DNA of 64,000 bases from Thermodesulfobacteriota bacterium (GCA_034189385.1 JAXHVD010000014.1:32001-96000); one strand, 5' to 3'; positions 3,371-64,000 are shown, numbered from the stretch's first letter. Notes: generated from the sequence alone by a model not told the origin. Numbers and translations: made by a program.

Positions 3371-5023
<1,653 letters not shown>

Positions 5024-12120: not shown

Positions 12121-12141
12121 GAGTCTGTTCCTTAATCTGTT

Positions 12142-12527: not shown

Positions 12528-12620
12528 GGAGAGGTTGCCGAGTGGCTGAAGGCCCCGCTCTCGAAAAGCGGTATCCTGTGAAAAACGGGATCGTGGGTTC
12601 GAATCCCACCCTCTCCGCCA
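12528..12620 (+). tRNA. tRNA-Ser(CGA)
   Basis: GGAGAGG/CCTCTCC acceptor stem, anticodon arm CCGCT-CTCGAAA-AGCGG, long variable arm, GGTTCGAATCC, encoded CCA. Confidence 0.96.
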
Positions 12621-15239: not shown

Positions 15240-15386
15240 ACCTCGAACTGCTTATCGCCTCACTCCCCGACCCCCTTTGATCAACTCATGGGGACAAGAG
15301 ACTCTTGTTCGACATTGCCTATCTATCTTCTGGGTCTCACCCCCATGTCCCTTGGAGAAACCACCCCAAATCAATAGCCCCCCTTG

Positions 15387-15631
15387 GAGACCTTTGCAGA
15401 ACCCTTCTCACTTGATTCTGTGATCTATTTGACCCTTTTTCGGCCTTGTTCGCCAAATCGCGACACGAAGTGCCTCTCTTCAAGCCGCCAGGCGCAACCT
15501 TTGCCCTCATACTCGGCCTAAGGGCCTCAAACAGTTCACGATTTACCCACTAGCGTGGGCCGCTCACAGCAGCCGAATGGGTGCCCCAAATAGCTCACAA
15601 TGACCGTTCGAAAGGGTTATGCAAAGCTCTC
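15387..15631. mobile_element. MITE family E, copy 1 (IS5/IS1106-like ends)
   Basis: TIR GAGACCTTTGCAGAACCC / GGGTTATGCAAAGCTCTC, flanked by CCTTG on both sides; shares blocks with 45538-45770. Confidence 0.82.
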
Positions 15632-15663
15632 CCTTGGTCAATGACAGACACAGGCCTTGGGCA

Positions 15664-17907: not shown

Positions 17908-18920
17908 CCCGCCATACCCTTCTTTCTAACTGAAGAGACCGTCCCCATCATCTTATCCCAATCACCTACGATGCCATTGGGAAGGAGAAGGATGACCACC
18001 ACCACCAGAATACCAAAGCCCAACACATGGGCTTGCATCACATACCCGGCCACTACGTGGACGACATCAGACCCAGTGAGCACCGCCAGCGTGTTGAAAA
18101 ATCCAAAAAATCCGGTCCTAAAAAACTCATGCACCGCCACCATCACAAAGGCCCCCACCACGGGGCCATAGAGGGTCCCCACACCCCCTACAATCCCTAC
18201 CAGAATAGCCATGATAGAGATGTCGTGAAGAGAAAACACCACCTCAGGGTCAATAAACCCCATGTAGTTCATATACAAAGACCCGGCCATCCCCGTGAGA
18301 AAGGCTGCAATGTTCAAAGAAACCATCTTGTAAAAGTGGGTATCAATGCCCAGGCTCTCGGCCGCATCCTGGTCTTCCCGGATGGAGACAAAGTAATAGC
18401 CCCATTTGGAGCCCATGATCATTTGGATGCTCAGCACGGAGACTGCGGCCAGTCCCAGGGCAATGTAGTAATAGGGCACCTTGGAGACAAAGGTCTGCAT
18501 AATGAGAATCCCTACCATGCCATCGGTCAAAGACTCCCACAGGGTGGCCACATGGCGCATGACCTCATTTAGGGCAAGGGTGGCAAGGGCGAAGTAGGCC
18601 CCCCTTAAGCGAAAACAGATCCAGCCGAAAGGCAGGGCAACGGCCATGGCCATCACCCCCCCAAAGGCCATGGCCCACCAGGCTGAAATGCCCAGTTTGT
18701 GAGCAAAAAGCCCTGCCGTGTAGGCCCCTGTGCCAAAAAAAGCGGCATCGCCAAAAGAGACCTGTCCTGTATAGCCGGCAATCACGTTCCACCCAGAACC
18801 GATGACCACCCACATGAGAACCAGGATCATTAGATGCTGCTGATAGTCGTCTTTGACCATGAGGGGAAAGAGGATCAGGACAAACAGCAATACCAGGGGC
18901 AAGATTCTTTTCACGGTCAT
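17904..18920 (-). CDS. livM: Branched-chain amino acid ABC transporter permease
   Basis: GYTGQVSFG, RLRGAYFALATL, IREDQDAAESLG; start uncertain (18920 or 18992). Confidence 0.92.
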   Translation of the reverse strand: MTVKRILPLVLLFVLILFPLMVKDDYQQHLMILVLMWVVIGSGWNVIAGYTGQVSFGDAAFFGTGAYTAGLFAHKLGISAWWAMAFGGVMAMAVALPFGWICFRLRGAYFALATLALNEVMRHVATLWESLTDGMVGILIMQTFVSKVPYYYIALGLAAVSVLSIQMIMGSKWGYYFVSIREDQDAAESLGIDTHFYKMVSLNIAAFLTGMAGSLYMNYMGFIDPEVVFSLHDISIMAILVGIVGGVGTLYGPVVGAFVMVAVHEFFRTGFFGFFNTLAVLTGSDVVHVVAGYVMQAHVLGFGILVVVVILLLPNGIVGDWDKMMGTVSSVRKKGMAG

Positions 18921-47979: not shown

Positions 47980-50148
47980 CTAGCTGCACTTTGAAAAGCC
48001 GCAGGAATGGCACACCTGACAGCCCCCTTCATGTTCCAGGACCCCTCCACAATCAGGGCAGGTGCCCATCATGTTCCGCATCTCTGTGGTGCCCATGTTA
48101 GTGTGGCTTTTGATGACTTGAGCAATGGCATCGGGACAGGAAAGGACCATTTTACCGTTTTGCCAGATCGGTGACGGGCAACGGATGCCCGTGAGCTGCT
48201 TTACGATAGGCTCCACTTTCACTCCGCTGCGCAAGGCTAGGGATATGAGACGGCCTGCAGCCTCGATCTGGGAAGAGGCACACCCCCCGGTCTTTCCCAT
48301 TTGCGCAAAGACCTCGCAAATCCCCTCATCGTCTTCGTTAATCGTCACATACAGTTTCCCGCATCCAGTCGTGATCCGCTCTGTCACCCCTGTGGTCCTC
48401 ACGGGCCGGGTCCGGGGAAGAATGGCTGCCGCCTTTTCCTTGTCTCTGCCAATATTGAGCACCTGACGGCCACGACTGCCATAACGGTAAATGGTGACCC
48501 CCTTGCAACCCATGTCATAGGCAAGCCTGTAAACCTTCTCAATATCTTCAAAGGTCGCATCTTGCGGGAAATTGACGGTCTTTGATACAGCATTGTCGGT
48601 GTGTTTTTGAAAAGCCGCCTGGATGCGGATGTGCCATTCAGGTGCGATGTCATGGGCCGTTACAAAGAGGCGCTTTATCTTGTCTGGGATTCCCTGGATA
48701 CCCTTGATGGAGCCTGTCTGGGCAATCTGCCGGACCAATTCTTCACTATAGAACCCCTCTTCTCTTGCCCTCTGCTCGAACAAGGGATGAATCTCGAAAA
48801 GGATTTCTCCGTCCAACACCTTGCGCTCATAAGCCACGGCAAAGATGGGCTCCACGCCACTTGAGCACCCCGCAATAATGCTAATCGTACCTGTAGGGGC
48901 GATGGTCGTTGTGGTGGCATTGCGCATATAGGGGGTCTTGGGATCATCAAATATACTTCCCTCATAGGTGGGAAAGTTTCCACGCTTCTTGGCCAAGGCA
49001 CCAGATGCCTTCCTGGCCTCTCTGAGGACAAAGCCCATGACTTGCTCGGCCCGGCGCACAGCCGCGTTCGAATTATAGGGGATCCCCATATGGACGAGCA
49101 TATCGGCAAATCCCATGACCCCCAGGCCGATTTTTCTGATCTTCTTGGTCATGGTTTCAATCTGGCGCAGGGGATGCTTGTTGACCTCGATGACATTATC
49201 AAGGAAGTGAACGGCCATCCGAACAGTCTGCCTCAGTTTGGCCCTGTCCAGTCTTCCTTCAGTCACCATCCTACTCAGATTAATGGAGCCCAAGTTACAC
49301 GATTCGTAAGGAAGAAGCGGTTGTTCACCACAAGGGTTGGTGGCCTCTATCTCGCCAAGATGGGGGGTAGGGTTGGCCCTGTTCATGTGGTCCAGAAAGA
49401 TAATCCCTGGTTCGCCACTTTGCCAGGCCGCCTGCACAATTTGGTCAAAGACCACCTTGGCTCCCACCCTTCTTGCGACCTTGCCGCTCCTGGGGTTTAT
49501 CAAGGCGTAGGTCTTGTGGGCACCCAGCGCCTCCATGAAAGAGGACGTGAGGGCAACAGAAATATTAAAGTTGTTGAGCCTGGACAGGTCGGTCTTGCTT
49601 TTGACGAAGGCCTCAATATCTGGATGGTCCACCCTGAGGATTCCCATGTTTGCCCCACGACGGGTGCCTCCCTGCTTGACCGTCTCAGTGGCCACGTCAA
49701 AGACGGTCATAAAGGACAACGGGCCGCTCGATATCCCCCTGGTGGACAACACCACATCATTTTCAGGCCGCACACGGGAAAAAGAAAAACCAGTCCCCCC
49801 CCCACTCTTATGAATGACTGCTGTATGTTTGAGCGTTTCAAATATACTGTCGATGGAATCTTCAACAGGAAGGACAAAACAGGCAGCCAATTGCCCAAGC
49901 CTGCGTCCTGCATTCATCAGGGTGGGAGAATTAGGCACAAAGTCCAAATTGGTCATCAAATGGTAGAAGTCTTCTTCAACCTGCTTGACATCGGCCTTGG
50001 GATCAAACTTGGCGTCAGCCGCTGCCACAGCTCGAGCTACCCGCCTGAAGAGGTCCTCCGGCGTCTCGGCGGGCCTTCCTCTCCCATCCTTGCGAAGATA
50101 CCGCCGTTCAAGGACTACCATGGCGTTTTTAGATAGAGATAATGACAT
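47980..50148 (-). CDS. nrdJ: Class II (B12-dependent) ribonucleotide reductase with TSCPD domain and C-terminal zinc ribbon
   Basis: [62 protein letters not shown]. Confidence 0.96.
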
Positions 50149-50174
50149 GATCGACTCATACCCTCAGTGGGCAG

Positions 50175-51083
50175 TTACTGGTTCCTATACGCTTCCGTTT
50201 CCTGCTTTAGAAACGTCACAAAGGCCCGGCACAAGGGTGACTCACTTCGATACTTGGCCATGATCAAATAAAAAGCCCTTTTAAAAGAAAGCCCCTTGAT
50301 CTCCAGTTTTTTGAGTGTGCCTGTAGCCAACTCCTCAGCAACAGCGCATTCAGAAAGGATGGAAATCCCCACCCCCGCCTTGATGGCCTGGCGAATCGCC
50401 TCCGTGCTCCCTACGGCCGCCACCACATTGATCTGACGAGGCCAATACCCTGATTGGTCCAATACTTCTTCGATGGACTTTCGCGTCCCAGAGCCTGGTT
50501 CACGGAGGACAAAAGGTTCGACGCCGAGTTCCTCTAACGTCACACGACCCCTGGCTGCCCACTTATGGTCACCGGGAACGATGAGGAACATCTGGTCATC
50601 CATGATCTTTTCTTGAACGAGCCGGCTTTCCCTGGTCTTGGCCCCCACCACGCCCAGCTCCACGGAGCCTTCCAGGGTTTCTTGAACAATCCTGGAAGTG
50701 TCCCCTTCTGTCAACGTCAAGGTTACTCCAGGGTAGGCCTCCTTGAACTTCCCTAACAAAGGCGGCAAGATATAGCCGCCCGGGATGGTGCTCCCCCCAA
50801 TAGCAAGATGCCCCCTCACCTTTCCCTGAAACTCAGCCATGACCTTTTCAGCATTATCCCTAAGGGCAATCATCTTCGTGGCATATCCATACAAGAGCTC
50901 TCCCGCCTTTGTAGGAGCAACCTCCCTGCCTAGGCGGTCTATCAGCTTGCACTCAAAATGATGCTCCAGGTCCTTGATGTGACTGCTTACCGTGGGTTGA
51001 GAAAGAAAGACCGCGCTGGCCGCCTTGGAAAAGCTCTTCAGCTCCACGACCTTGCAAAATATGTAAAGCCTCCATAAGTCCAT
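50175..51083 (-). CDS. LysR-family regulator (CysL / selenium-metabolism-associated type)
   Basis: SFSKAA..LSQPTVSSHIK HTH, GGSTIPGGY, REPGSGTR, STEAI. Confidence 0.92.
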   Translation of the reverse strand: MDLWRLYIFCKVVELKSFSKAASAVFLSQPTVSSHIKDLEHHFECKLIDRLGREVAPTKAGELLYGYATKMIALRDNAEKVMAEFQGKVRGHLAIGGSTIPGGYILPPLLGKFKEAYPGVTLTLTEGDTSRIVQETLEGSVELGVVGAKTRESRLVQEKIMDDQMFLIVPGDHKWAARGRVTLEELGVEPFVLREPGSGTRKSIEEVLDQSGYWPRQINVVAAVGSTEAIRQAIKAGVGISILSECAVAEELATGTLKKLEIKGLSFKRAFYLIMAKYRSESPLCRAFVTFLKQETEAYRNQ

Positions 51084-51270
51084 ATTAGCACTATAAAAGC
51101 CGGCTCAAGCACATGATCTCATGCGGCAAGCTTCTCCCATGCGGAGATCTTTGTATCACTCCTTGAACCCTCATGGTAAGCTTTCCGCAACCGCGTCCGT
51201 GCAAGTGAAGGGGCCATCGTACATGTCTCGATCTGCCGGAGAAGACCGTTGATCAAAGAGATGAGTGGTA

Positions 51271-51771
51271 TCATAGCCCCTTGCCTGCAGCAAACTTCGC
51301 CTTAAGTCTTTCAGAAACCACATCAGGAACCATCCCGGTGGTGTCTCCCCCGAATCGGGCAGCTTCTTTGATAATGGAGGAGCTGATGAAGATCCATCGC
51401 AAGCCTGTCATGAGAAAAACGGTTTGCACGTTCTTCTTCAGCTTTCGATTCATCAGGGCAAGTTGGAATTCATACTCAAAGTCTGACACAGCCCTAAGGC
51501 CCCTGAGGATGGCATCAGCCCCCCGCTCGGTCACATAATCCACCAGAAGCCCGTCAAAGCTATCGACCTGGACATTAGGCTCGTCCTTGAAAACCTCCGT
51601 CAACATCTCTACGCGCTCTTGTACTGTAAACAGCGGGGTTTTGCTCCCATTCGTAGCAATGGCCACAATGACGCTGTCAAACAGCTTTAACCCCCGGTAA
51701 ATGATGTCACAGTGGCCATTTGTGATGGGGTCAAAAGTCCCAGGATAAACGGCCGTCTTTCTTGTATGCAT
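51271..51771 (-). CDS. coaD: Phosphopantetheine adenylyltransferase
   Basis: YPGTFDPITNGH, RGLRAVSDFEYE, ISSS. Confidence 0.98.
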   Translation of the reverse strand: MHTRKTAVYPGTFDPITNGHCDIIYRGLKLFDSVIVAIATNGSKTPLFTVQERVEMLTEVFKDEPNVQVDSFDGLLVDYVTERGADAILRGLRAVSDFEYEFQLALMNRKLKKNVQTVFLMTGLRWIFISSSIIKEAARFGGDTTGMVPDVVSERLKAKFAAGKGL

Positions 51772-51883
51772 GCTATTTCACCTTCACGTCCACTTGTGCT
51801 TATGGCTTTTCTCCAATCCAGTTGGAGAAAAGGGTTGGGAGATGATCCAGTTTTTTTGAGTAACACCTCCGGCACAGCTCGTT

Positions 51884-52438
51884 TTATAACACAGATTCGA
51901 AAAAGGAGACAACGGTCTTCCCCTTTTGTCTATGGTCGATCCTCTCAAAGGGGCCGACCTTATCTGGCAGAGGCTCCCGGGTACTGTGTTCAACGACCAC
52001 GCAGGCCCCCTGGGCAACGCAGGTACTGCGCTCCAAGAGTTGCATCGTTCTTTCAGCGAATCCTTTATTATAGGGGGGATCCATGAAGACCAGATCAAAG
52101 GCCCGATCCAGGGCCCTCAAAAAGCCCAGTCCCCGAAGGATGTCCTGCCTCAAGACAGTGCTTTTGCCTTCCAATCCGCAGGTGGAGATGTTTTTGGCAA
52201 GACTCCTGATGGACTGGACTTGGCTATCAACAAATACGGCAGAGGCCGCGCCGCGGCTGAGGGCCTCTATTCCAAGACTGCCAGTGCCGGCAAATAGATC
52301 AAGGACCACCGCATCTTCCACACGATTCGCCACGATATTGAAGATGGACTCCCTCAAGTAATCCGTGGTGGGACGAATCTCCTGCCCCCGCAAGGGGTGG
52401 AGCCTCCTTTTTTTTAAAGTACCGCCAATAACCCTCAC
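51884..52438 (-). CDS. rsmD: 16S rRNA G966 N2-methyltransferase
   Basis: GTG start (M)RVIGG, RPTTD, DLFAGTGSLGIEALSRGA, DPPY. Confidence 0.95.
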   Translation of the reverse strand: MRVIGGTLKKRRLHPLRGQEIRPTTDYLRESIFNIVANRVEDAVVLDLFAGTGSLGIEALSRGAASAVFVDSQVQSIRSLAKNISTCGLEGKSTVLRQDILRGLGFLRALDRAFDLVFMDPPYNKGFAERTMQLLERSTCVAQGACVVVEHSTREPLPDKVGPFERIDHRQKGKTVVSFFESVL

Positions 52439-52489
52439 CAGTATCCACCACAATGCTAGTGCAGTGTCTCCACTGGCCTTACAATTTCC

Positions 52490-52578
52490 GTTATGTCGGA
52501 CTTGATCGGGCATCCAGTAATTGTGCTGGATTCCCCGGTCCCCAGATCAAATCCGGGGCAGGCAAGCCGGGGAATGGC
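52490..52578. repeat. REP-like palindromic doublet
   Basis: GTTATGTCGGACTTGATCGGGCATCCAG...CTGGATTCCCCGG...CCGGGGAATGGC downstream of ntrX. Confidence 0.6.
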
Positions 52579-52749
52579 CACTTTCCGCCTTTTCTTGTCA
52601 GGTTCATATTGTTGTCAAGAAATCGCAGAGAGACAACTAGCCACGCCCATTTCCCCACTCAGTTTGTCAAAAAACGCCTCAGAACAAGCGAAAAAGCATT
52701 TGGGCAACAGCCCCTTGATGCGACACCAAAAGGGCAAAGGCACCAGTGG

Positions 52750-54105
52750 TCATGAGCTGATGCCAAAAGACTCTATTTTCTTGTAGAGCTGGCTTTTTTC
52801 CATACCGATGGAATCTGCAGTTTGAGAAATGTTGTTGTTGTTTTCAGCGAGCTTCTGCCGGAGATAGGCCTTCTCAAACTCCCTCTTGGCTTCGCTAAAG
52901 GAGGCCCCTTCAAAGAATTCCACACCAGCCTCTTCTTGTTTTTGGCGCCTGTATGTAGGAGGGATGTCGCACTCGTCGATGACATCCGCTTGTGTCATGA
53001 TGGCCAGTCTTTCCACCAGATTCTTCAGCTCCCGCACATTGCCAGGCCATGAATATTCCTGCAAGTGCTCAATGGCTGCTGGTGTCATGGTCTTTTCACC
53101 CCAATCGCTCTCCTGGGCAAATCCCCTCAAAAAAGTCTCTACCAACAGGGGGATGTCTTCCGTGCGTCTTCGCAAAGGGGGCACCTCGATTGGGATCACA
53201 TTCAGACGGTAGTAAAGGTCTTCCCTGAATGCCCCCTTTTCAATCTCTTTCTCCAGGTCTTTATTACTCGCCGCCAGCACCCGCACATCTACTGTCAGCG
53301 TTCGCCCCCCGCCTACCCTTTCAAATTTTTGTTCTTGCAAAATTCGAAGGATCTTTGCCTGGGTCCTTAGACTCATGTCTCCTATCTCGTCCAGGAAAAT
53401 GGTGCCCCCATTGGCTATCTCGAACTTGCCCCGCTTTTTTGACGACGCGCCGGCAATGGCCCCCTTTTCATGACCAAAGAGTTCGCTTTCGATCATCCCA
53501 TCCGGTATGGCAGCACAATTGACGTCAATCAAGGACTGGTCCGCTCGATCGCTCATCTGGTGAATCGTGCGCGCCACCAACTCTTTGCCCGTTCCGTTCT
53601 CGCCAATGATCAGAATCCAGGCATCCGTGGGAGCAGCCGTAGCGATCTGTCTCTTCATGGCCTGAATGGTCGCGCTATTTCCCGTGATAGAATGCTTCTC
53701 TAATGTCTTTTTGCGCAGGAAACGGTTTTCCTCCTCCAGCCGTCTGAAGTTGAGAGCATTATTAATGGTAACGACGACCTTCTCGATGGAAAGAGGTTTT
53801 TCGATAAAATCATAGGCGCCAAGCTTGGTTGCCTTGACCGCTGTCTCAATGGTGCCATGGCCTGAAATAATGATCACCTGAAGAAAGGGATTCGTCCTTT
53901 TGATTTCCTGAAGGGTTTCTATCCCGTCCATACCGGGCATCCAGACGTCCAAGAGGACCAGGTCCGGGGCCTGCTCTTCAATCAGCTTCAAGGCCTCATA
54001 CCCATTTGGGGCAGTCAGTGTCTCATAGCCTTCATCAGAAAGGATGCCACTTAATGCCTGCGATATGGTACTCTCATCATCTACAACCAATATGGTGGGA
54101 AACAT
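52750..54105 (-). CDS. ntrX: NtrX-like response regulator (REC-AAA-HTH)
   Basis: LVVDD/LLDVW REC, GENGTGKE, ESELFGHEKGAIAGA, FLDEI, FREDLYYRL, WPGNVREL; downstream of the NtrY-like kinase. Confidence 0.88.
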   Translation of the reverse strand: MFPTILVVDDESTISQALSGILSDEGYETLTAPNGYEALKLIEEQAPDLVLLDVWMPGMDGIETLQEIKRTNPFLQVIIISGHGTIETAVKATKLGAYDFIEKPLSIEKVVVTINNALNFRRLEEENRFLRKKTLEKHSITGNSATIQAMKRQIATAAPTDAWILIIGENGTGKELVARTIHQMSDRADQSLIDVNCAAIPDGMIESELFGHEKGAIAGASSKKRGKFEIANGGTIFLDEIGDMSLRTQAKILRILQEQKFERVGGGRTLTVDVRVLAASNKDLEKEIEKGAFREDLYYRLNVIPIEVPPLRRRTEDIPLLVETFLRGFAQESDWGEKTMTPAAIEHLQEYSWPGNVRELKNLVERLAIMTQADVIDECDIPPTYRRQKQEEAGVEFFEGASFSEAKREFEKAYLRQKLAENNNNISQTADSIGMEKSQLYKKIESFGISS

Positions 54106-54135
54106 AGATCAACCCCTCTTCCAAATGTCCATCCG

Positions 54136-54288
54136 TGACGGCTTCGCAAAAGTCTTAAAGTCCCTCACTCCGGCGAAAGCCGGAGGCCTGAACAGAGCTA
54201 CTGCACACCCGCCGGCAGTTTACCCCGTGCTTGATGCGGGGCCGGGATGACAACAAATGGTATCCTTCGGCTTTTTGCCATTTCATCA
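54136..54288. repeat. REP-doublet miniature element family D between ntrY and ntrX
   Basis: TGACGGCTTCGCAAAAGTC...CTCCGGCGAAAGCCGGAG...GGCTTTTTGCCATTTCATCA. Confidence 0.65.
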
Positions 54289-54292
54289 CCCC

Positions 54293-56506
54293 TCAAGCCG
54301 GCAGTTCCACAATGAAAGTAGTCCCTGTGGGGTGGTTGTCCTGGACCTGGATCGATCCGTAGTGATCTTCGACAATGGCATTCACGATAGACAGTCCCAG
54401 GCCCATCCCTGTCTTCTTGGTCGAAAAATAGGGCTCAAAAAGATGGCCCTTGTCTTCCGGCGAAATCCCGCTGCCTGTGTCACTAATCTCCAGGCGCACG
54501 CGCTTTGAAACTGGATCAAAACCCATGGTGATCGCAACAGTGCCTTTTCTCCCCACGGCTGAAATAGCATTGTCAATGAGATTGAGTAATACACGCTTCA
54601 TCTGCCCCCTGTCCAGATTCAATTGGGGGATCTCTGAGGTCGTCTCCACTTCAAAGGAGATGTGAGGGTGGGCCTCCCGGTAAAGGGCCACGGCCTCACC
54701 TGCAATCTGTGGCAGGTGGCACGGTTCAGGGTTCACAGCCGGCAGACGAGCAAAGGAAGAGAACTCATTGACGAGGCGTCCTATCTGATCCACCTGGTCA
54801 ATGATGGTCTGAGTACACTCTCCAAAGATCGCCTTGTCGTGACGAATCTGCTTACCATACTTGCGCCTAAGCCTTTGTGCAGAAAGCTTTATAGGTGTCA
54901 GGGGGTTTTTCACTTCGTGGGCAATGCGTCTTGCCACCTCACGCCAAGCCGCCATCCTCTGGGCCTTCTCAATCTCTGTGAGATCGTCAAAGACAACGAC
55001 CGTGCCCATGTACCGCTCCTTCTCATCCCTAAGGGCAGCCACATGGACCATGAAGGTGCGCGCTGTTTCATCAACCGTAATCTTGACGGTCCTTTCCACA
55101 GAATTGCCGGGACCCCCTTTTAGCTCTTTCAACAAATCTTTAGCTTGTGTCAGGTGTTCAGGCTTCAGTACCTCCTCATACATCCGGTTGAGAAATCCCT
55201 TCCCTTCGATGCCAAGCATTTTCTCTGCTGATTTGTTGATCGTCGTAAAAAAACCCCCGGCGTCCAGCGAAACAACACCGGCAGATACGTTCTGTAACAC
55301 GGTCTCCATGTATAAACGCCGCTGTTCAATCTCTAGGTTTCTCTTCTTGAGCTCCTGTGTAGACAACTCCAGCTGTGCTTTACCCAATCTCAAATCCCGG
55401 GTCATCCTGTTAAAGGCATCCACCAGCGTGCCCATCTCGTCATCAGAAACCATCTCAAGGGCAAAATTCAGATCGCCGTCAGCCACCCGGCGCGTTCCTT
55501 CGGCCAACTCCTGGATGGGAACCGTTAGGGTTTTTGCCAGATAGAACCCAAACCACGTGGCGCAGAACATGATCAGCAGGGCCACGATGGAAAGCGTAAT
55601 GAGATGGCTGACCTGGATAGGCTTCTTCACCATCTTCATCTGCTGGTACTGGTCAAAGCCCCTTAAGATGGTGGTCATGTTTTCTGACAGGTTTGGCGGA
55701 ATCACGGTTGTCACAGCCACGACCCCCAGCGCCTTATCGCTGCTCGCGTTCACTGGGATGCTACCGAGGGTCCTGATCATCTCGCCCGAAGGAAGGAACC
55801 CTGTGATGGTCGGAAACCCTCTTCGTCGCAATGCCTTCTGAATGCTCTCAGCAGGCACGGGTGGAAGGGGTGCACCTTCCAGTTCGGCATCGAGCCCGAC
55901 GGCCAGCCGCTCAGACCGATTAGAATAGATTTCTATGGCCTGTAGATTAAAGGCCCCCTGCACAACCCGAACATAATGCTTCAGCGCTTCGCTGTTCTTC
56001 TCCACCAGCAGGTCTCTGCGGACAATCTGATAGGCGATCCTCTCCAAGAAGAAACGATTGTTCTCTCCAACCTGCTTGTATACCTGTTTACCTACCTCCA
56101 GAGACTTCTCCAAGGACTGTTCCACCGGGACATTAAACCAGAAGGCCACACTTGACGTGAGAAACTGCGATGAAAAAAAGAAAAGCAGGACCGTTGGGAT
56201 GAGAGACAGACAGGCAAAGGCCACCACAAGCTTCGTCCGCAGCTTCGCGCCCATCACCTTGCGCTTGCGGTCATAGAGGAGTTTCACCACGTTTCTCAGC
56301 ACGAGAAAAATCAACAGCAACAGCAACAGCATGTTCATATTGATAAGAATGAACGTGATGATGGTGTTGGAAACGGGGAGTCCCGTGCCAAAACGGATAA
56401 CCTTGGTTTCTATATAGGTAAGAAAGGCGACGGCGAGGACCAAGATGAGAATAATGATCCGCTCACGCTTGCGGCGCTTGGCTTCCTCTTGCGACATGGG
56501 TAACAT
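54293..56506 (-). CDS. ntrY: NtrY-like sensor histidine kinase (TMs, HAMP, PAS, HisKA, HATPase)
   Basis: GAKLRTKLV, AWREVARRIAHEVKNPLTPI, NLIDNA, DTGSG, GMGLGL. Confidence 0.92.
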   Translation of the reverse strand: MLPMSQEEAKRRKRERIIILILVLAVAFLTYIETKVIRFGTGLPVSNTIITFILINMNMLLLLLLIFLVLRNVVKLLYDRKRKVMGAKLRTKLVVAFACLSLIPTVLLFFFSSQFLTSSVAFWFNVPVEQSLEKSLEVGKQVYKQVGENNRFFLERIAYQIVRRDLLVEKNSEALKHYVRVVQGAFNLQAIEIYSNRSERLAVGLDAELEGAPLPPVPAESIQKALRRRGFPTITGFLPSGEMIRTLGSIPVNASSDKALGVVAVTTVIPPNLSENMTTILRGFDQYQQMKMVKKPIQVSHLITLSIVALLIMFCATWFGFYLAKTLTVPIQELAEGTRRVADGDLNFALEMVSDDEMGTLVDAFNRMTRDLRLGKAQLELSTQELKKRNLEIEQRRLYMETVLQNVSAGVVSLDAGGFFTTINKSAEKMLGIEGKGFLNRMYEEVLKPEHLTQAKDLLKELKGGPGNSVERTVKITVDETARTFMVHVAALRDEKERYMGTVVVFDDLTEIEKAQRMAAWREVARRIAHEVKNPLTPIKLSAQRLRRKYGKQIRHDKAIFGECTQTIIDQVDQIGRLVNEFSSFARLPAVNPEPCHLPQIAGEAVALYREAHPHISFEVETTSEIPQLNLDRGQMKRVLLNLIDNAISAVGRKGTVAITMGFDPVSKRVRLEISDTGSGISPEDKGHLFEPYFSTKKTGMGLGLSIVNAIVEDHYGSIQVQDNHPTGTTFIVELPA

Positions 56507-56517
56507 GGAGGTTGGCC

Positions 56518-57147
56518 CTAGTACATGAAGTCCAAAGTGTACCAGTCAGTCTCGAAATCCCAGAGAAACAGGAAGAACCGAAACACGTAATGGAGATAAA
56601 AGGGAAGGGTTATCTTGCTGAGTTTGGCCTTTATCTCGACTTCATAGCGATGGCCTTTTTCCAGGATGTCGAGCTCGGCAATCTTGAGATTCTCCACTTC
56701 AGCCATGATCTCTTTGGCTTCAGACAGGGAGTTCACCACAAGGGGACACCCCTCGCGCTCGCTCCTTGTGATGACAAATTCGTTCTTCAGATTATTGTAT
56801 TTTACCGTGTGGGTTATCTCCAAGCTGGCCAGTTCCTTGTCTGCCCACCAGCCTCGAACGCGCTCAAGGGCGGTCAGGAATCTGAACGTCGTTGGAATCC
56901 CGTTTAGGATGGCCTGCTCTAAATCGTCGGTGAAACATCCCTCCACCCGAAAATGGACGATGATACCATCTGGGGTGTTCTTCACCACCACGTCCGTTAT
57001 CCTTGCATCCTCACTCCAGGCGAACTGCGAAGAAAACAGGATTGCGCACAGTGTGACGATCAAAAGCCCTTTTCTCACGTAGGTTATAATGCTTTCCTCC
57101 CGTCCTGCTACCGCCTCATGCCCACAGTGCCCGTGGCCCCTTTCCAC
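56518..57147 (-). CDS. DUF4390 family exported protein
   Basis: Signal-like segment, AILNGIPTTF, LPFYLHY..WDFETDW; usual position upstream of ntrY. Start uncertain, likely downstream of 57147. Confidence 0.82.
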   Translation of the reverse strand: MERGHGHCGHEAVAGREESIITYVRKGLLIVTLCAILFSSQFAWSEDARITDVVVKNTPDGIIVHFRVEGCFTDDLEQAILNGIPTTFRFLTALERVRGWWADKELASLEITHTVKYNNLKNEFVITRSEREGCPLVVNSLSEAKEIMAEVENLKIAELDILEKGHRYEVEIKAKLSKITLPFYLHYVFRFFLFLWDFETDWYTLDFMY

Positions 57148-57336
57148 GAACGACAGCCAGCCTGAACTAGGCTACACCCTTGCCCCTGGCCCCCCGGCCA
57201 TTGAAAGCCCTCATCAACTCCCAAAAGAGGCCCGAAGGAACCCAATAGGCCTGACCAAGGGTCGTAACCACCTTAAATCACGATAACGAACTGGGGATTA
57301 AATTGCAAGGGATTTCGAGGCCAAACAGGGATGGGC

Positions 57337-58209
57337 CTAAGGTGAAAAGGTCGATGCCTCCACCGTATCCCAGCAAGACCGTTGGTCAATGAACCGCGTC
57401 AACAGGGCATGATTGAGGGTGTGACCGGACTTGTGGGCTACAATATGGCCCACAATGCCCATGCCTAAAAGAGATAGGTCACCAATACAGTCGAGTATCT
57501 TGTGGCGAACAGGCTCATTCTGGTACCGAAGCCCTTCCGGATTCAACACCTTTTCCTTGTCAATGACCACAGCATTGTCCAAAGACCCACCGCGGGCGAA
57601 TCCATTCCGCTTCAAATACTCGACTTCATGCAGAAAGCCAAAGGTCCTGGCGCGGCTGATCTCCTCTTCAAAATGCCCATTATCCAGAGAAATAGAGTAG
57701 GTCTGGTCTCTCAACATGGGGTGGTCAAAGTCTATGCTGCACGTCACCTTAGGAATGTCTGATGGGTAGAGCCCGACCTTTTTGTCTGCCTCTTCCATTT
57801 CAATGGGCTTCTTGACGACAAAGAAGAACCGTTTACCCGATTGGGGACTAATCCCTGCCTCTTTCAGCATCGACGTAAAGGGTCCGGCGCTACCGTCCAT
57901 GATGGGAGCCTCATAGGCATCCATCTCCACTAGGGCATTGTCTATCTGCAAACCTGCAAATGCAGCCATGAGGTGTTCAATGGTAGAAACGATCACCCCA
58001 TCGGCACCCAAGGTGGTCGCCAGACTCGTGTCAATCACATTGCGAAAATGGGCGGCAATCACCGGCTTGTGGGGAAGATCAACCCGGACAAACTTTACCC
58101 CGTGGTTCACGGGGGCCGGTTTGATGGTCAACGTAACGCTTCTCCCCGAATGGAGCCCCACACCGGCACACTGAACCGATTTTCCTAACGTTTGCTGGTG
58201 ATCATGCAT
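57337..58209 (-). CDS. lpxC: UDP-3-O-acyl-GlcNAc deacetylase
   Basis: GVGLHSG, TIEHLMA, PIMDGSA, ARTFGF, HKILDCIGD, SGH. Confidence 0.97.
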   Translation of the reverse strand: MHDHQQTLGKSVQCAGVGLHSGRSVTLTIKPAPVNHGVKFVRVDLPHKPVIAAHFRNVIDTSLATTLGADGVIVSTIEHLMAAFAGLQIDNALVEMDAYEAPIMDGSAGPFTSMLKEAGISPQSGKRFFFVVKKPIEMEEADKKVGLYPSDIPKVTCSIDFDHPMLRDQTYSISLDNGHFEEEISRARTFGFLHEVEYLKRNGFARGGSLDNAVVIDKEKVLNPEGLRYQNEPVRHKILDCIGDLSLLGMGIVGHIVAHKSGHTLNHALLTRFIDQRSCWDTVEASTFSP

Positions 58210-59152: not shown

Positions 59153-61018
59153 ATGCCGAACCAAAGCATGCCTGATGTCTCAAAGTATGGCTCTATTCAT
59201 GATTTTTTAAAGGCCCAAGCCCAGCGAGCACCTAATGCTCTTGCCATTCTGGCTCCTGGGCGGAATCCCCTTACGTACAGCGAATTGTGCATTCAAACTG
59301 AAGGTACGGTGGAAATGCTAAATGCAATGGGGGTTGGCCGTAATGACCGCGTAGCCATTGTTCTTCCTAACGGCCCCGAGTTAGCCGCTGCCTTTCTGGC
59401 AGTGGCCTCTGGGGGAACCAGCGCCCCGCTGAATCCCGCCTATGGCGCTAAGGAATTTGATTTCTATCTTGGCGATTTAGATGCCAAGGCATTGGTTATT
59501 CAATCTGGCATGGACTCGCCAGCGATCAGCGTGGCACGAACACGCGGGACCCCCATCATCGAACTGTCACCTGTGGTTGAGGCAGGGGCAGGGAGTTTCA
59601 CGCTCGTGGGCGCTGAACGATCGGCAGCGGCCAATGGCGGCATTGCACAGCTGGAGGATGTGGCTCTGGTGCTGCACACCTCAGGCACGACATCGCGACC
59701 CAAGGTCGTCCCCCTGACCCAGAGGAATCTTTGCACCTCGGCCCACAACATTCGGAGCGCTTTTGAGTTGGGTGATAGCGATCGCTGTCTCAATGTGATG
59801 CCCCTATTTCACATTCATGGCCTCGTGGGAGCCATCCTTTCGACGCTGGCGGCTGGCGGGAACGTCGTTTGCACTCCAGGCTTTGACGGGTCCGAATTCT
59901 TCAACTGGGTGGCAGGGTTTCACCCAACTTGGTACACGGCAGTGCCTACCATGCACCAGGCGATCCTGAACGGTGCTTCATCCCATCACAACGTCATCGC
60001 CCGTTATCCGCTGCGATTCATACGTTCCTGTTCTGCCCCTTTGCCGCCAAAGACAATGGCAGCGTTGGAAGGCCTGTTCAATGCCCCTGTGCTTGAGTCG
60101 TACGGGATGACCGAGGCTGCCCACCAAATGACCAGCAATCCCTTGCCTCCCCGTAAGCGTAAACCTGGTTCCATAGGGATACCCACCGGACAAGAGGTGG
60201 CCATCATGAATGAAACAGGCGACCTTCTAAAGACAGGCGAGACCGGTGAGATCGTGATCCGAGGTGCGAACGTCACACAGGGCTATGAAAACAATCCGGA
60301 AGCCAACAAAAGCGCTTTTTGCAACGGTTGGTTCAGAACCGGGGATGAAGGCTTTTTTGACGAAGACGGCTACTTGTTCTTGACAGGCCGTATCAAGGAA
60401 ATGATCAATCGTGGCGGCGAAAAAGTAGCGCCGAGAGAAATTGATGAGGCGGTCATGGAGCATCCTGCTGTGGAACAAGCTGTGACCTTTGCCGTCGCCC
60501 ATGCCACCCTTTGGGAAGATGTTGCCACAGCCGTGGTGTTGGGAGCAAAGGCTTCGGCAACGGAGAAGGAGATCCGTGAGTGGGCCTTTGCACGACTGGC
60601 TGATTACAAAGTGCCAAGCCAGGTGGTCATAGTAGATGAGGTGCCGAAAGGCCCTACCGGGAAGCTTCAACGCATCGGTTTGGCAGAGAAGTTCATGTCA
60701 AAGCTCAAGTCACCATTCGTGGCACCCAGGAATCCGGCGGAGAAGGCCGTGGCCAGGATCTGGGCCGCGGTCCTGGATATGGAGCAGGTAGGGATTTACG
60801 ACAACTTCTTCGGACTGGGTGGAGACTCGCTCCTTGCCACCCAGGTGGTTTCTCGGTTGCGGGCAGCTTTTCGTGTGGAGCTGCCCTTGCCAACGATGTT
60901 TAGGGGGCCCACTGTGGCCGACCAGGCGTCATTGATTGAAGAGCTGCTCATGAGTGAGGTGGAAGGGCTGACAGAAGAGGAAGCGCGACAGTTTCTTGAG
61001 CAGCGACACGGCTTTTGA
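59153..61018 (+). CDS. Acyl-CoA-ligase (oxalate--CoA ligase AAE3/Pcs60-like) fused to a phosphopantetheinyl carrier domain; NRPS loading protein
   Basis: LHTSGTTSRPKVVPL, MPLFHIHGL, TWYTAVPTMHQ, LRFIRSCSAPL, YGMTEAAHQMTSNPLP, PTGKLQR; then DNFFGLGGDSLLA and an acidic docking-type tail. Confidence 0.88.
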   Translation: MPNQSMPDVSKYGSIHDFLKAQAQRAPNALAILAPGRNPLTYSELCIQTEGTVEMLNAMGVGRNDRVAIVLPNGPELAAAFLAVASGGTSAPLNPAYGAKEFDFYLGDLDAKALVIQSGMDSPAISVARTRGTPIIELSPVVEAGAGSFTLVGAERSAAANGGIAQLEDVALVLHTSGTTSRPKVVPLTQRNLCTSAHNIRSAFELGDSDRCLNVMPLFHIHGLVGAILSTLAAGGNVVCTPGFDGSEFFNWVAGFHPTWYTAVPTMHQAILNGASSHHNVIARYPLRFIRSCSAPLPPKTMAALEGLFNAPVLESYGMTEAAHQMTSNPLPPRKRKPGSIGIPTGQEVAIMNETGDLLKTGETGEIVIRGANVTQGYENNPEANKSAFCNGWFRTGDEGFFDEDGYLFLTGRIKEMINRGGEKVAPREIDEAVMEHPAVEQAVTFAVAHATLWEDVATAVVLGAKASATEKEIREWAFARLADYKVPSQVVIVDEVPKGPTGKLQRIGLAEKFMSKLKSPFVAPRNPAEKAVARIWAAVLDMEQVGIYDNFFGLGGDSLLATQVVSRLRAAFRVELPLPTMFRGPTVADQASLIEELLMSEVEGLTEEEARQFLEQRHGF

Positions 61019-61030
61019 TGGGCTGGAAGC

Positions 61031-64000
61031 GTGACTCAAAAAGAGGACATGGGGCAACGGCGGTCCAGGCTCTCACCGGCCAAGGGAGCGCTGCTTGAGA
61101 AACGGCTGCAACAGGCGCTGACGGCCGATTTTGAATCGAAAGTAATCCCTAAGCGTCCAGAGCCAGAAGACGTACCTCTGTCTTTCGCTCAGGAACGCTT
61201 TTGGTTCCTTCATCAGCTGGAGCCTGGCAACCCTGCTTACAACCGTCCTTTTGCCCTTCGTCTCACGGGCCCGCTCAACGTGACCGCCTTGGAGCAGACC
61301 CTTAGTGAAATCTTGCGCCGGCACGAGACACTGCGGGCAACTTTCTCCTCCATGGACGGACGACCGGTCCAGGCCATTTCCCCCGCCCGACCCGTGACTC
61401 TTGCGGTGACAGATCTGAGCAGGCAACCTGATCCGGAACGAGAAGCGCAGGCCAGGCAGTTGGCGGCTGTGGAAGCCCAGCGATCCTTTGATCTGGTCCA
61501 AGGGCCTTTGGTTCGGGCCACCTTGCTACGTCTAGACAACGAGGAGCACCTGCTACTGCTGGTGATACACCATATTGCCTTTGATGGCTGGTCCGCCAAA
61601 GTGCTCATCCGTGAGCTCACGGCGATCTATGAAGCTTTTTCCAAGGGGAGCCCGTCGCCGCTGGCTGAACTGCCTATCCAGTGCGCAGATTTTGCACTCT
61701 GGCAGCGACAGTGGCTGCAGGGTGATGTCTTCAAGATACAGCTCTCCTATTGGCAAGACCAACTGGCAGGTTCCCCACCCTCACTGGATCTCCCCGCGGA
61801 TTACCCACGGCCGGCGACACAGACGCATCGGGGGAGACGTGAAGCCGTGACGTTGCCTGTCTCTTTGTTGAGATCACTAAAAACCCTAAGCCAGCAGGAG
61901 GGCGTCACCCTGTTCATGGTATTGCTGGCAGCCTTCCAGGTCCTGCTGCATCGGTATACGGGAAAGGATGACATCGTCGTGGGCTGTCCTATTTCAGGCC
62001 GCACCCACGTGGAGACAGAAAAAGTGATCGGGTTTTTGGTCAATACCTTGGTCCTTCGGACTGACCTGTCTGGCAACCCGACTTTTCGGGAACTATTGAG
62101 TCGGGTCCGTGAGGTGGCAATGGGCGCCTACGCCCACCAGGATCTGCCCTTCGAGAAACTCATAGAGGAGTTGAAATTGGACCGGGACCTCAGCAGAACA
62201 CCGTTATTTCAGGTCATGTTCAACTTGGAGAATGTTCCTGGAGAGGTAGTGCTAACACAAGACCTGACCTTAGATGAATTCGAATTTGACAGTCGCGTCT
62301 CACAGTTCGATTTGACCTTGGAAGTAGTGGAGAAGACCGACGGGCTGTCCTGTTTGTGGGTGTACAACAGCGACTTATTTGATGAGACCACTGTTAAGCG
62401 AATGTCAGGACATTTTAGGACTTTGTTAGAAGGCATTGTGGCCAATCCAGGACAGCGCATCGGATTGTTGCCACTTCTAACGGAATCTGAACGACATCAG
62501 TTTCTGGTGGAGTGGAATGACAATCGAGTCCACTATCCCGAGGATCAGTGCGTCCATCAGCTTTTTGAGTCTCAGGCGAAACGAACGCCCGACGCCGTTG
62601 CGGCGGTCTTTAAGGACCAGCAGATGACTTACGACGAGCTGAACCGTCGGGCAAATTGCCTGGCACACTACCTGCGCAAGCTTGGGGTGGGGCCGGACAT
62701 CTTGGTAGGAGTTTGTGTGGAGCGCTCCTTGGAGATGGTAGTGGGGCTGCTGGGCGTTCTCAAGGCCGGGGGTGCTTATGTCCCTCTGGATCCGGCCTAT
62801 CCTGAAAAGCGCTTGGCCTTCATGGTGGAAGAGACAGAGGCGCCGGCGTTATTGAGCCAAAAGCACCTGGCAAAAAGGTTTAGCGATACCGGGGTAAAAG
62901 TCGTGTGTCTGGACAGAGATTGGGATGTAATCTCCCGAGAACCAGAAGAGAATCCTCTTTCTGAAACAGGGCCCCGCAATTTACTCTATCTGATTTACAC
63001 TTCGGGTTCCACGGGAAAACCGAAAGGGGTGGAAATCGAACATAGGGGGGTAGTCAGTCTTATCTCGTGGCAGCAACGAACATTCTCTGTGTCTGAGGCA
63101 GACCGAGCGACCCAGCTTGGAGCACTTTCTTTTGATATGACCGTCATGGAGCTGTGGCCTTATCTGACTGCGGGAGCAACCGTGCATTTCCCGCCGGATA
63201 ACGAAACGCGCACGTCGCCCTTGCAACTCCGTGATTGGTTGGTCTCAGAGGCAATTACCATCAGCGACCTGGTGACCCCATTGGCGGAATGGGTTCTGCC
63301 GCTGAGCTGGCCCAAAGGTTCCGCACTTCGGACCCTTGTGACTGGGGGCGACAAACTCAGTTCTTATCCTTCAGACGACTTGCCTTTTGAGTTTGTGAAC
63401 ACCTACGGCCCTGCAGAGTACACGGTACTCACGACATGGGCTACTATTGAACCAAATCAGCGAGCCCACTCAGCGCCACCTATCGGCCGACCCATCGATA
63501 ATACGCAGGTGTACCTGCTCGACAAATACTTACAGCCTGTTCCCATCGGCGTACCTGGTGAGCTGTACGTTGGCGGTGTGGGCCTGGCCCGAGGCTATCT
63601 CAAGCGCCCGGAGCTGACGGCCGAGAAGTTCATACCCCATCCATTCAGCCATGCCCCCGGTGCGCGTCTTTACAAAACTGGCGACCTGGCCCGTTATTTG
63701 CCCGATGGGGCCATTGAGTTCCTCGGCAGGATGGACAGCCAGGTCAAGATTCGTGGCTGCCGTGTGGAACTGGGAGAGATTGAGACAATACTAGGGCAAC
63801 ATCCAGCTGTGAACAAAGCCGTGGTCTTGGCCACAGAGAGGGGAAGCAAACACGGCCGCCTTCCGATTTCACCGGCAACAGACAAGATCCTGGCAGCCTA
63901 TGTGGTACTGCACAAGGGCCACTCTGTGTCCACTAGTGGACTGCGCCGGTTTCTGAAAGAGAGACTGCCGGAGTATATGGCCCCTTCAGCGTTTGTGGAA
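61031..64000 (+). CDS. Non-ribosomal peptide synthetase, C-A domains (runs off the window)
   Basis: Hand translation at spot-checked positions, all in one frame: LSPAKGALLEKRL, LSFAQERFWFLHQLEP, HHIAFDGWS (near 61568), YLIYTSGSTGKPKGV (near 62987), NTYGPAE, GELYVGG, YKTGDL, QVKIRGCRVELGEIE, LPEYM. Absent from the ORF track because no stop falls in the window. Confidence 0.96.
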   Translation, partial: MTQKEDMGQRRSRLSPAKGALLEKRLQQALTADFESKVIPKRPEPEDVPLSFAQERFWFLHQLEPGNPAYNRPFALRLTGPLNVTALEQTLSEILRRHETLRATFSSMDGRPVQAISPARPVTLAVTDLSRQPDPEREAQARQLAAVEAQRSFDLVQGPLVRATLLRLDNEEHLLLLVIHHIAFDGWSAKVLIRELTAIYEAFSKGSPSPLAELPIQCADFALWQRQWLQGDVFKIQLSYWQDQLAGSPPSLDLPADYPRPATQTHRGRREAVTLPVSLLRSLKTLSQQEGVTLFMVLLAAFQVLLHRYTGKDDIVVGCPISGRTHVETEKVIGFLVNTLVLRTDLSGNPTFRELLSRVREVAMGAYAHQDLPFEKLIEELKLDRDLSRTPLFQVMFNLENVPGEVVLTQDLTLDEFEFDSRVSQFDLTLEVVEKTDGLSCLWVYNSDLFDETTVKRMSGHFRTLLEGIVANPGQRIGLLPLLTESERHQFLVEWNDNRVHYPEDQCVHQLFESQAKRTPDAVAAVFKDQQMTYDELNRRANCLAHYLRKLGVGPDILVGVCVERSLEMVVGLLGVLKAGGAYVPLDPAYPEKRLAFMVEETEAPALLSQKHLAKRFSDTGVKVVCLDRDWDVISREPEENPLSETGPRNLLYLIYTSGSTGKPKGVEIEHRGVVSLISWQQRTFSVSEADRATQLGALSFDMTVMELWPYLTAGATVHFPPDNETRTSPLQLRDWLVSEAITISDLVTPLAEWVLPLSWPKGSALRTLVTGGDKLSSYPSDDLPFEFVNTYGPAEYTVLTTWATIEPNQRAHSAPPIGRPIDNTQVYLLDKYLQPVPIGVPGELYVGGVGLARGYLKRPELTAEKFIPHPFSHAPGARLYKTGDLARYLPDGAIEFLGRMDSQVKIRGCRVELGEIETILGQHPAVNKAVVLATERGSKHGRLPISPATDKILAAYVVLHKGHSVSTSGLRRFLKERLPEYMAPSAFVE

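What the first reader, a model, noticed from the sequence alone, without database searches (positions are those of the whole stretch)
59153..64000. NRPS assembly line apparently primed with oxalate: AAE3/Pcs60-like ligase fused to a carrier domain
Seen: the first protein is not an amino-acid A domain or an obvious long-chain FAAL. It carries LHTSGTTSRPK, PLFHIHGL, TWYTAVPTMHQ, LRFIRSCSA and TEAAHQMTSNPLP, fused to a GGDSL carrier domain, and is followed 12 bp later by a C-A NRPS. Knowledge (from memory): these motifs closely match oxalyl-CoA synthetases of the plant AAE3 / yeast Pcs60 family, which are normally stand-alone oxalate-catabolic enzymes. Inference: the ligase loads oxalyl (or another small dicarboxylate) on its own carrier and the C domain builds an N-oxalyl peptide, a plausible metal chelator. 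I know of no characterised pathway with this layout in an anaerobic Desulfobacterota, though the rest of the cluster is outside the window.
Basis: partly seen in the sequence, partly recalled or inferred. Interest (0 to 1): 0.82.

Follow-up and report, generated by a model that had tools for sequence, protein, structure and literature searches.

The report
Oxalate-loading starter of a peptide synthetase
A bacterium from marine samples carries a relative of the plant and yeast oxalate-activating enzyme fused to a carrier domain at the head of a 22-kb peptide assembly line, where it likely loads oxalate as the first building block, an apparently undescribed way of starting such lines that recurs in many bacterial phyla.

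Summary
Observation confirmed. The 621-aa protein is an oxalate-CoA-ligase-type domain (best matches AAE3, LsOCS, Pcs60) fused to a carrier, 12 bp before a C-A-T NRPS. The three oxalate-contacting residues of AAE3 are kept (S294, H324, K504). The fusion is a widespread subfamily: 30 of 160 related loci are carrier-fused, 17 of these 30 have a C domain nearby (2 of 130 stand-alone), and 4 are single ligase-T-C proteins. It most likely loads oxalyl as NRPS starter (0.8); no assay exists. The scan noted this starter before on other DNA. New here is the rest of the 22-kb cluster: a hydratase-A(MT)-T loader whose pocket lacks the amine-binding Asp, an FkbH/ACP/dehydrogenase cassette without any PKS, a Pro-type module with a Cys thioesterase, and a beta-keto acid cleavage enzyme. 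The genome lacks the ICL-family lyase that usually accompanies the starter, so that enzyme is the candidate oxalate source (0.3). Docking ends hint at two starter arms converging on one terminal module. The metal-chelator idea has no support in the cluster (no receptor, transporter or Fur box). No paper describing oxalate-primed NRPS was found; MIBiG was not searchable.

The parts
59153..61018 (+). orf1: oxalate-CoA-ligase-type adenylation domain fused to a carrier (T) domain, 621 aa; predicted NRPS loading module
59195..60697 (+). Ligase domain (about residues 15-515). Oxalate pocket I221-H222, C293-S294, G318-M319, H324, K504, against AtAAE3 V215-H216, C288-S289, A313-M314, H319, K500
   Evidence: alignment, residues from PMC8905533, conservation
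60506..60622 (+). C-subdomain positions T452, S489, Q490, which are Lys/Arg in stand-alone relatives and AAE3 (inferred CoA-phosphate clamp). W454 replaces an otherwise near-invariant Gly
   Evidence: clamp concept from PMC8460268
60746..60934 (+). Carrier domain, GGDSL with Ser559 as predicted phosphopantetheine site
60938..61015 (+). Acidic C-terminal helix (LLMSEVEGLTEEEA), putative docking donor
   Evidence: sequence pattern only
61031..61120 (+). Basic N-terminal segment of orf2 (LSPAKGALLEKRL), putative docking acceptor for orf1
   Evidence: same pattern in most C domains that follow the ligase-carrier fusion
61169..62500 (+). orf2 condensation domain with intact HHIAFDG motif; sister to the first C domain behind the same starter in a Gemmatimonadota cluster (L003)
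62564..64000 (+). orf2 adenylation domain, pocket code DMMDVGTVL (amino acid, possibly basic). The gene runs on beyond the window to C6:96447 and ends in a T domain; the cluster continues to C6:113408

Best explanation
The ligase domain likely activates oxalate with ATP and likely loads it on its own fused carrier, and the next gene's condensation domain would then join the oxalyl group to an amino acid, so oxalate is the predicted starter of a short N-oxalyl peptide. Inferred further steps: the oxalyl-aminoacyl unit passes to the terminal Pro-type module and is released or transferred by a cysteine thioesterase. A second arm (hydratase-A-MT-T loader and/or hydroxymalonyl-ACP cassette, then a paralogous C-A-T) supplies a different diacid cap, probably to the same terminal module. 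Oxalate supply here is not by the usual ICL-family lyase; the cluster's beta-keto acid cleavage enzyme is the candidate.
For: Shown: top sequence and fold matches are oxalate-CoA ligases. All three oxalate-contacting residues are kept, and 6 of 8 pocket residues are identical to AAE3. PMC8905533 calls Ser289/His319 specific to oxalyl-CoA synthetases and reports malonate 4 orders and glyoxylate 61-fold worse for LsOCS. All 120 listed homologs carry PP-binding. C domain in the locus: 17 of 30 fused against 2 of 130 stand-alone; 4 single-chain ligase-T-C proteins. ICL/PEP-mutase-family lyase: 6 of 30 fused against 1 of 130 stand-alone, and beside 3 of 4 fused copies in the host's own order. All three putative CoA-clamp basic residues are present in 90 of 128 stand-alone, 4 of 62 fused and none in the window. 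One branch (0.98) separates 43 stand-alone plus one fused sequence from 61 fused. PPTase and MbtH lie in the cluster. No oxalyl-CoA decarboxylase over cut-off in the genome.
Against: No biochemical data. Pocket conservation among the fetched loci is partly built in by the search patterns. Yeast Pcs60, a proven CoA ligase, keeps only 1 of the 3 basic residues, so their loss does not prove a switch to the carrier. The window protein has Trp at 454 where 188 of the other 189 relatives have Gly, which may impair this copy. No known oxalate source is in the cluster: no PF13714 match in a 90%-complete genome. The BKACE is far closer to Kce (170 bits) than to ObcA (30 bits), accompanies 0 of 30 other fused loci, and its 9 nearest relatives in the class have no such ligase nearby. 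Amino-acid codes of orf2 and orf9 match no label I can assign firmly.
Confidence: 0.8

Rival explanations
1. The ligase loads another small acid (glyoxylate, malonate, or hydroxymalonate from the FkbH cassette) rather than oxalate.
For: No oxalate-making lyase found in this genome. The cluster encodes a C3-diacid cassette. Plant LsOCS accepts glyoxylate and, poorly, malonate. Two pocket positions differ from AAE3 (V to I, A to G).
Against: The same I/G pair is found in all 128 stand-alone relatives, including a Methylobacterium copy beside a PanE-like gene (57.5% identical). The triad is intact. None of the 30 other fused loci has FkbH.
Confidence: 0.1
2. Oxalate is loaded but this copy is impaired or decaying (G454W), or the first C-A-T gene is a recent dispensable duplicate, so the line as written makes no N-oxalyl peptide.
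For: W454 is unique among the 190 aligned sequences. orf2 and orf9 share 74% in A and 82% in T. One contig of an independent study places the ligase-carrier gene directly before the hydratase-A gene, without orf2 and MbtH (joint 2829 to 6742, one contig, likeness 85).
Against: All 12 genes are intact open frames with catalytic motifs. A 97%-identical relative keeps the orf1-orf2 junction. The orf2 C domain groups with the starter-accepting C of L003 (0.97).
Confidence: 0.06
3. It is an ordinary oxalyl-CoA synthetase of oxalate catabolism or a fatty/aryl acid ligase (FAAL-like), and the carrier fusion is incidental.
For: Best NCBIfam model is 'FadD7 family fatty acid-CoA ligase' (423 bits, below its cut-off of 650). 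Stand-alone relatives are 55-62% identical.
Against: No FAAL structure among the 46 PDB matches at E up to 1e-40, and no insertion against AAE3 longer than a few residues. No oxc in the genome. The fused subfamily is tied to C domains, PPTases and thioesterases.
Confidence: 0.04

Closest known systems
Oxalate-CoA ligases / oxalyl-CoA synthetases (Arabidopsis AAE3, PDB 5IE0-5IE3; Lathyrus LsOCS, 6QJZ; yeast Pcs60, 8AFF)
   Same: Fold, 40-44% identity in the structural alignment, oxalate pocket, A8 and A10 motifs.
   Different: Fused carrier and docking helix, loss of basic C-subdomain residues, NRPS context instead of oxalate catabolism.
Grass-pea beta-ODAP route (OCS plus BOS acyltransferase; PMC8905533)
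   Same: Activated oxalate is transferred to an amine to give an N-oxalyl amino acid.
   Different: CoA-bound and made by a separate acyltransferase; here carrier-bound and predicted to be condensed by an NRPS C domain.
FAAL-ACP and aryl-acid A-T loading modules of lipopeptide and siderophore NRPSs (FAAL features from PMC8460268; EntE/DhbE type recalled)
   Same: Acyl-AMP ligase loads a carrier that primes a C domain; loss of CoA-phosphate basic residues parallels FAALs.
   Different: Different ligase family, C2 diacid pocket, no FAAL insertion.
FkbH/ACP/dehydrogenase cassettes for hydroxymalonyl- or methoxymalonyl-ACP (zwittermicin, FK520; recalled; Chan 2006 seen only as a reference title)
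   Same: FkbH (over TIGR01686 cut-off), small ACP, 3-hydroxyacyl-CoA dehydrogenase and acyl-CoA dehydrogenase lie together.
   Different: No ketosynthase or acyltransferase in the cluster, so the unit cannot be a PKS extender here.
Burkholderia oxalogenesis ObcA/Obc1 and DUF849 beta-keto acid cleavage enzymes (passages of PMC5028181 and 10.64898/2026.01.15.699783)
   Same: Related TIM-barrel chemistry; Obc1 turns oxaloacetate plus acetyl-CoA into oxalate, acetoacetate and CoA.
   Different: The cluster's enzyme is a plain 277-aa DUF849 protein, only weakly like ObcA (30 bits), with no ObcB or C-domain partner seen.

Membership tests
Oxalate-CoA ligase (AAE3/Pcs60) | Best sequence and fold match among ANL enzymes | tested here: met
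Oxalate-CoA ligase (AAE3/Pcs60) | Oxalate-binding Ser289, His319, Lys500 | tested here: met
   S294, H324, K504
Oxalate-CoA ligase (AAE3/Pcs60) | Stand-alone enzyme with CoA as acceptor | tested here: not met
   Fused carrier; 0 of 3 basic clamp-position residues. Loss of CoA use itself is inferred, not shown.
Oxalate-CoA ligase (AAE3/Pcs60) | Measured oxalate adenylation | not testable with these tools
   needs an enzyme assay
Fatty acyl-AMP ligase (FAAL) | FAAL-specific insertion and closest similarity to FAALs | tested here: not met
   Collinear with AAE3; no FAAL among 46 PDB matches at E up to 1e-40 or among the 25 best NCBIfam models shown of 107
Fatty acyl-AMP ligase (FAAL) | Loss of Arg/Lys clamp for CoA phosphates | tested here: inconclusive
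   Basic residues lost, but their role is inferred from position and Pcs60 keeps only one
Amino-acid NRPS adenylation domain (orf1) | TIGR01733 match and amine-binding Asp in motif A4 | tested here: not met
   TIGR01733 not among the 25 best models for orf1, but over cut-off for orf2; PLFHIHG in place of FD
Siderophore NRPS cluster | TonB-dependent receptor, exporter or Fur box with the cluster | tested here: not met
   None among the 15 cluster and downstream proteins scanned; receptors lie on other contigs; no Fur consensus match at up to 6 mismatches upstream (consensus recalled)
Hydroxymalonyl-/methoxymalonyl-ACP PKS extender cassette | FkbH + ACP + two dehydrogenases | tested here: met
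Hydroxymalonyl-/methoxymalonyl-ACP PKS extender cassette | Partner PKS (KS/AT) in the cluster | tested here: not met
   No KS or AT domain in C6:91153-119611
ObcA/Obc1 oxalate synthase | N-terminal extension of about 200 residues and closest similarity to ObcA | tested here: not met
   277 aa; Kce 170 bits against ObcA 30 bits
Lysine-fermentation Kce | Equivalog score and amine-binding Glu | tested here: not met
   266 bits, cut-off 382; Val where Kce and the genus's own Kce-type copies have Glu (role of that Glu recalled)
A characterised MIBiG cluster | Match in MIBiG/antiSMASH | not testable with these tools
   no such library available; only paper searches

The most novel reading that the evidence does not exclude
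A branched NRPS that caps amino acids with a series of small diacids (C2 oxalyl, C3 hydroxy- or methoxymalonyl, C4 malyl/fumaryl type) on separate loaders, funnels two starter arms into one proline module through charge-swapped docking ends, and makes its own oxalyl supply with a plain DUF849 enzyme cleaving oxaloacetate, a new route of bacterial oxalogenesis in an anaerobe.
Probability: 0.15. Interest if true: 0.87.

Novelty: new variant of a known kind. Interest (0 to 1): 0.7.

Why it matters
If true, oxalate joins fatty, aryl and hydroxy acids as a general NRPS starter, loaded by a portable module that annotation calls a fatty-acid ligase. The module precedes A domains with many different codes, so it predicts a family of N-oxalyl amino acids and peptides. 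N-oxalyl amino acids mimic 2-oxoglutarate (own knowledge), and one minimal cluster in the host's order is predicted to make N-oxalylglycine. The first step is cheap to test with a single 621-aa protein. This cluster also exposes a second conserved, apparently undescribed loader (hydratase-A-T with code SARDxTLG) and PKS-free use of an FkbH cassette.

Tried and rejected
Docking test: the orf2 C-end with the orf10 N-end in the complex predictor gave no verdict (score 0.27, mark 0.34). Expression: no RNA holder listed. BKACE as an ObcA ortholog: rejected on sequence; the ObcA structure paper and the Gulick review were not held, so ObcA active-site residues could not be compared. BKACE as a conserved partner of the starter: not seen (0 of 30 loci; 0 of 4 genomes behind L003, L004, L005, L059; G113 has an unrelated copy on another contig). 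Genomic context of the hydratase-A family could not be obtained: 0 of 400 phylum genomes with this query, 0 of 5 handles, only stand-alone hydratases on plasmids. No Rfam match upstream; one sigma-54-like match with 2 mismatches, not beyond chance. A dedicated oxalyl-accepting C-domain clade: not found; the first C domains are scattered over the tree. Foxicin as a PKS-free FkbH precedent: rejected, it is a PKS/NRPS hybrid. The rest of the window was not annotated (one search failed and was not repeated). In the AlphaFold model the pocket loops have pLDDT under 50, so no pocket geometry was read from it.

Full report
OBSERVATION. The window is G000:C6:32001-96000. Pfam gives AMP-binding, AMP-binding_C and PP-binding for the first protein, and Condensation plus AMP-binding for the second. 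The four best PDB sequence matches are oxalate-CoA ligases (5ie0 431 bits, 6qjz 421, 8aff 384, 8atd 301); the next is FadD13 at 227. A fold search with an AlphaFold model (mean pLDDT 80.9) ranks the same enzymes first. NCBIfam's best model is FadD7 at 423 bits, below its cut-off of 650. Contigs of the likely source run cover C6:90999-109999 without differences, which is not independent. An independent marine sediment study holds a relative whose contig spans the orf1-orf2 junction with 78 differences in 2762 bases. dsrA scores over its cut-off.

THE OXALATE POCKET. Passages of PMC8905533 list the AAE3 pocket as V215-H216, C288-S289, A313-M314, H319, K500, with S289, H319 and K500 touching oxalate and the first two specific to oxalyl-CoA synthetases. 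On the alignment these are I221-H222, C293-S294, G318-M319, H324, K504. S294, H324 and K504 are invariant in 62 of 62 fused and 128 of 128 stand-alone ligase domains (6 of 195 candidates dropped for short coverage). Part of this is built in: the locus searches used patterns from these motifs. LsOCS uses glyoxylate 61-fold and malonate about 10,000-fold less efficiently than oxalate.

THE FUSION IS A WIDESPREAD SUBFAMILY. All 120 listed homologs carry a PP-binding domain, some also a thioesterase or hexapeptide-repeat domain (hits ranked by similarity to the fused query). A C domain lies in 17 of 30 fused against 2 of 130 stand-alone loci; four proteins are single-chain ligase-T-C fusions (L005 Calothrix, L006 Verrucomicrobiota, L059 Blastocatellia, L104). 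An ICL/PEP-mutase-family lyase lies in 6 of 30 against 1 of 130, a ThDP enzyme in 3 of 30 against 3 of 130 (BLAST with one reference each, so lower bounds). Record titles of fused loci span at least seven phyla. A FastTree tree of 62 fused, 43 of the 128 stand-alone and 4 outgroup domains has one branch (0.98) with all 43 stand-alone plus L031 on one side; the root is unreliable and half of the fused rows were picked by similarity to the query. The gene is sporadic among kin: 0 of 60 relatives and 5 of 400 order genomes, 4 of them fused, with a lyase beside 3 of the 4.

SIGNS OF A SWITCH FROM CoA TO THE CARRIER. Positions 452, 489 and 490 are Lys/Arg in 105, 123 and 110 of 128 stand-alone domains but in 13, 10 and 20 of 62 fused ones; all three are basic in 90 of 128 against 4 of 62 (3 of 31 among fused loci alone), and the window has none. 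PMC8460268 (passages) describes such C-subdomain Arg/Lys residues as the CoA-phosphate clamp that FAALs lack. That these positions are the clamp is my inference. Against it: AAE3 and LsOCS have all three, but Pcs60, a proven CoA ligase, has one. The window protein also has Trp454 where 188 of the other 189 aligned domains have Gly. A low-depth contig of a second sample of the same study agrees with the Trp codon, near its end, so it is probably real, with unknown effect.

[quoted passage not shown] No PKS domain, receptor or transporter was found among the 15 proteins scanned up to C6:119611. Pocket codes, read at positions recalled from GrsA: orf2 DMMDVGTVL (possibly basic), orf9 DVMVMAAVL (hydrophobic), orf10 DVQFIAQVV (Pro-type), orf4 SARDLTLGT (labels recalled). 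orf4 lacks the amine-binding Asp and has Arg at 239; SARD-x-TLG is kept in 52 of 52 aligned homologs (52 of the 58 with the hydratase domain). In all 58 the hydratase domain comes first, and two continue into C-A-T, so this is a second loader. One of two stand-alone relatives inspected (33% identical) sits beside CoA transferases, a CoA-ester lyase and tricarboxylate transporters; the other lies in a beta-oxidation-type cluster. I infer a dicarboxylate of the malate/fumarate type. The C domains of orf2 and orf10 are sisters (0.97 each) to the first and last C of the two-module Gemmatimonadota cluster L003, so this cluster looks like that backbone with a second arm inserted. The orf10 TE has Cys as nucleophile (GACLGG). 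Cys is found in 22 of 26 ligase-T-TE proteins (after removing two mis-binned rows and adding one), 6 of 9 NRPS TEs behind the starter, and 2 of 12 hydratase-A-T-TE proteins.

LINEAR OR BRANCHED. The acidic C-end of orf1 and the basic N-end of orf2 match the pair seen in most related loci, which supports orf1-to-orf2 hand-over. orf2 and orf9 both end in the same basic variant, and orf10 starts with an acidic variant. From the sequence pattern alone I infer that both feed orf10, giving oxalyl-aa-Pro and a second diacyl-aa-Pro (about 0.4). One X3 contig joins the ligase-carrier gene directly to orf4, skipping orf2 and MbtH (one contig, probably another organism), so the two loaders travel together.

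WHERE THE OXALATE COMES FROM. The genome (90% complete) has no PF13714 match and one BKACE, the one in the cluster. BKACEs turn a beta-keto acid and acetyl-CoA into acyl-CoA and acetoacetate, and the related ObcA acts on oxaloacetate (passages). The cluster enzyme is not the genus's Kce type (36-38% identity, Glu replaced; 8 of 36 genus genomes have some BKACE). Its 9 nearest relatives among 400 class genomes (42-62%) lie beside GNAT or hexapeptide acyltransferases (5 of 9) and glycosyltransferases (4 of 9 by Pfam; 32 neighbours scanned, not all), and it occurs fused to each. It is therefore likely an acyl-CoA supplier. Against an oxalate role: ObcA scores only 30 bits, none of those 9 loci has the ligase, and no other fused locus has a BKACE. 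I give it 0.3; uptake of oxalate or oxidation of glyoxylate are alternatives.

COMPARISON WITH THE LITERATURE. Searches for oxalyl with NRPS or carrier terms, for MaoC-A domains, for FkbH/hydroxymalonyl with NRPS and for bacterial oxs returned no description of an oxalate-primed NRPS; I saw these as listings with abstract starts. The library lacks most subscription papers and MIBiG was not available. Seen as passages: PMC8905533 (plus section 12), 10.1101/2022.08.30.505785, 10.64898/2026.01.15.699783, PMC11961710, PMC5318452, PMC5028181, PMC8460268. No supplements were read. Fan 2016, Oh 2014 and Chan 2006 were seen only as citations. Earlier AI notes of this scan report the same starter in other genomes, with a lyase, a ThDP enzyme or a Cys thioesterase; I took the reading of the lyase as oxalate source from them and tested only its co-occurrence. 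None was found for this place or for orf4.

VERDICT. Shown: anatomy, pocket, family context. Inferred: oxalate loading and N-oxalyl condensation (0.8), branched logic (0.4), BKACE supply (0.3), product structure (low). It works like a FAAL-ACP or aryl-acid loading module but belongs to neither family, and it departs from AAE3/Pcs60 in acceptor and context. New variant of a known kind; interest 0.7.

Noticed in passing
L169 (G113:C12) 9783-18395: Minimal cluster lyase, ligase-T, C-A-T-TE with Gly-type code DILQLGMIW and Cys TE in a genome of the host's order; predicted to make N-oxalylglycine, a 2-oxoglutarate mimic (label recalled).
   Followed up: partly
L005 9989-15706: Calothrix single-chain ligase-T-C-A(Ser-type)-T-TE inside a glycosyltransferase and FkbM-methyltransferase locus; may decorate a polysaccharide.
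   Followed up: partly
L007 4882-9341; L172 12764-18216; L010 9302-13075: Ligase-T fused to or beside hexapeptide-repeat acyltransferases, with lyases or glycosyltransferases: possible oxalylation of bacterial glycans (the L172 C-terminal domain was not scanned).
   Followed up: partly
L019 4179-8690: Ligase-T followed by a lantibiotic-dehydratase N-terminal (PEARL-like) protein, with arginase, phosphotransferase and GNAT genes upstream, in Ktedonobacteraceae.
   Followed up: no
L001 6780-10709 (C6:96779-100708): Widespread hydratase-A-T loader family with invariant SARDxTLG pocket; 11 of 58 carry an embedded FkbM methyltransferase; no paper found.
   Followed up: partly
L199-L207: A DUF849 subfamily that sits beside GNAT or hexapeptide acyltransferases and glycosyltransferases in the host's class; acyl product unknown.
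   Followed up: partly
window 60512-60514: Trp454 in place of a Gly kept in 188 of the other 189 aligned relatives.
   Followed up: partly
L012, L125, L138: ThDP enzymes (oxalyl-CoA-decarboxylase-like, below cut-off) directly after the ligase-carrier gene; two of the three carry the NRPS-type docking N-end.
   Followed up: no
L002 8761-13612 (C6:114760-119611): Downstream low-GC genes (44-50% against 56% in the NRPS genes): peroxiredoxin, transglutaminase-like protein, TPR-sulfotransferase; link to the cluster not shown.
   Followed up: no
window 47980-58209: Upstream housekeeping block on the minus strand (class II ribonucleotide reductase, LysR, CoaD, RsmD, NtrX/NtrY-like pair, LpxC; names recalled from the translations), so the cluster's left border is the 943-bp gap before 59153.
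   Followed up: no
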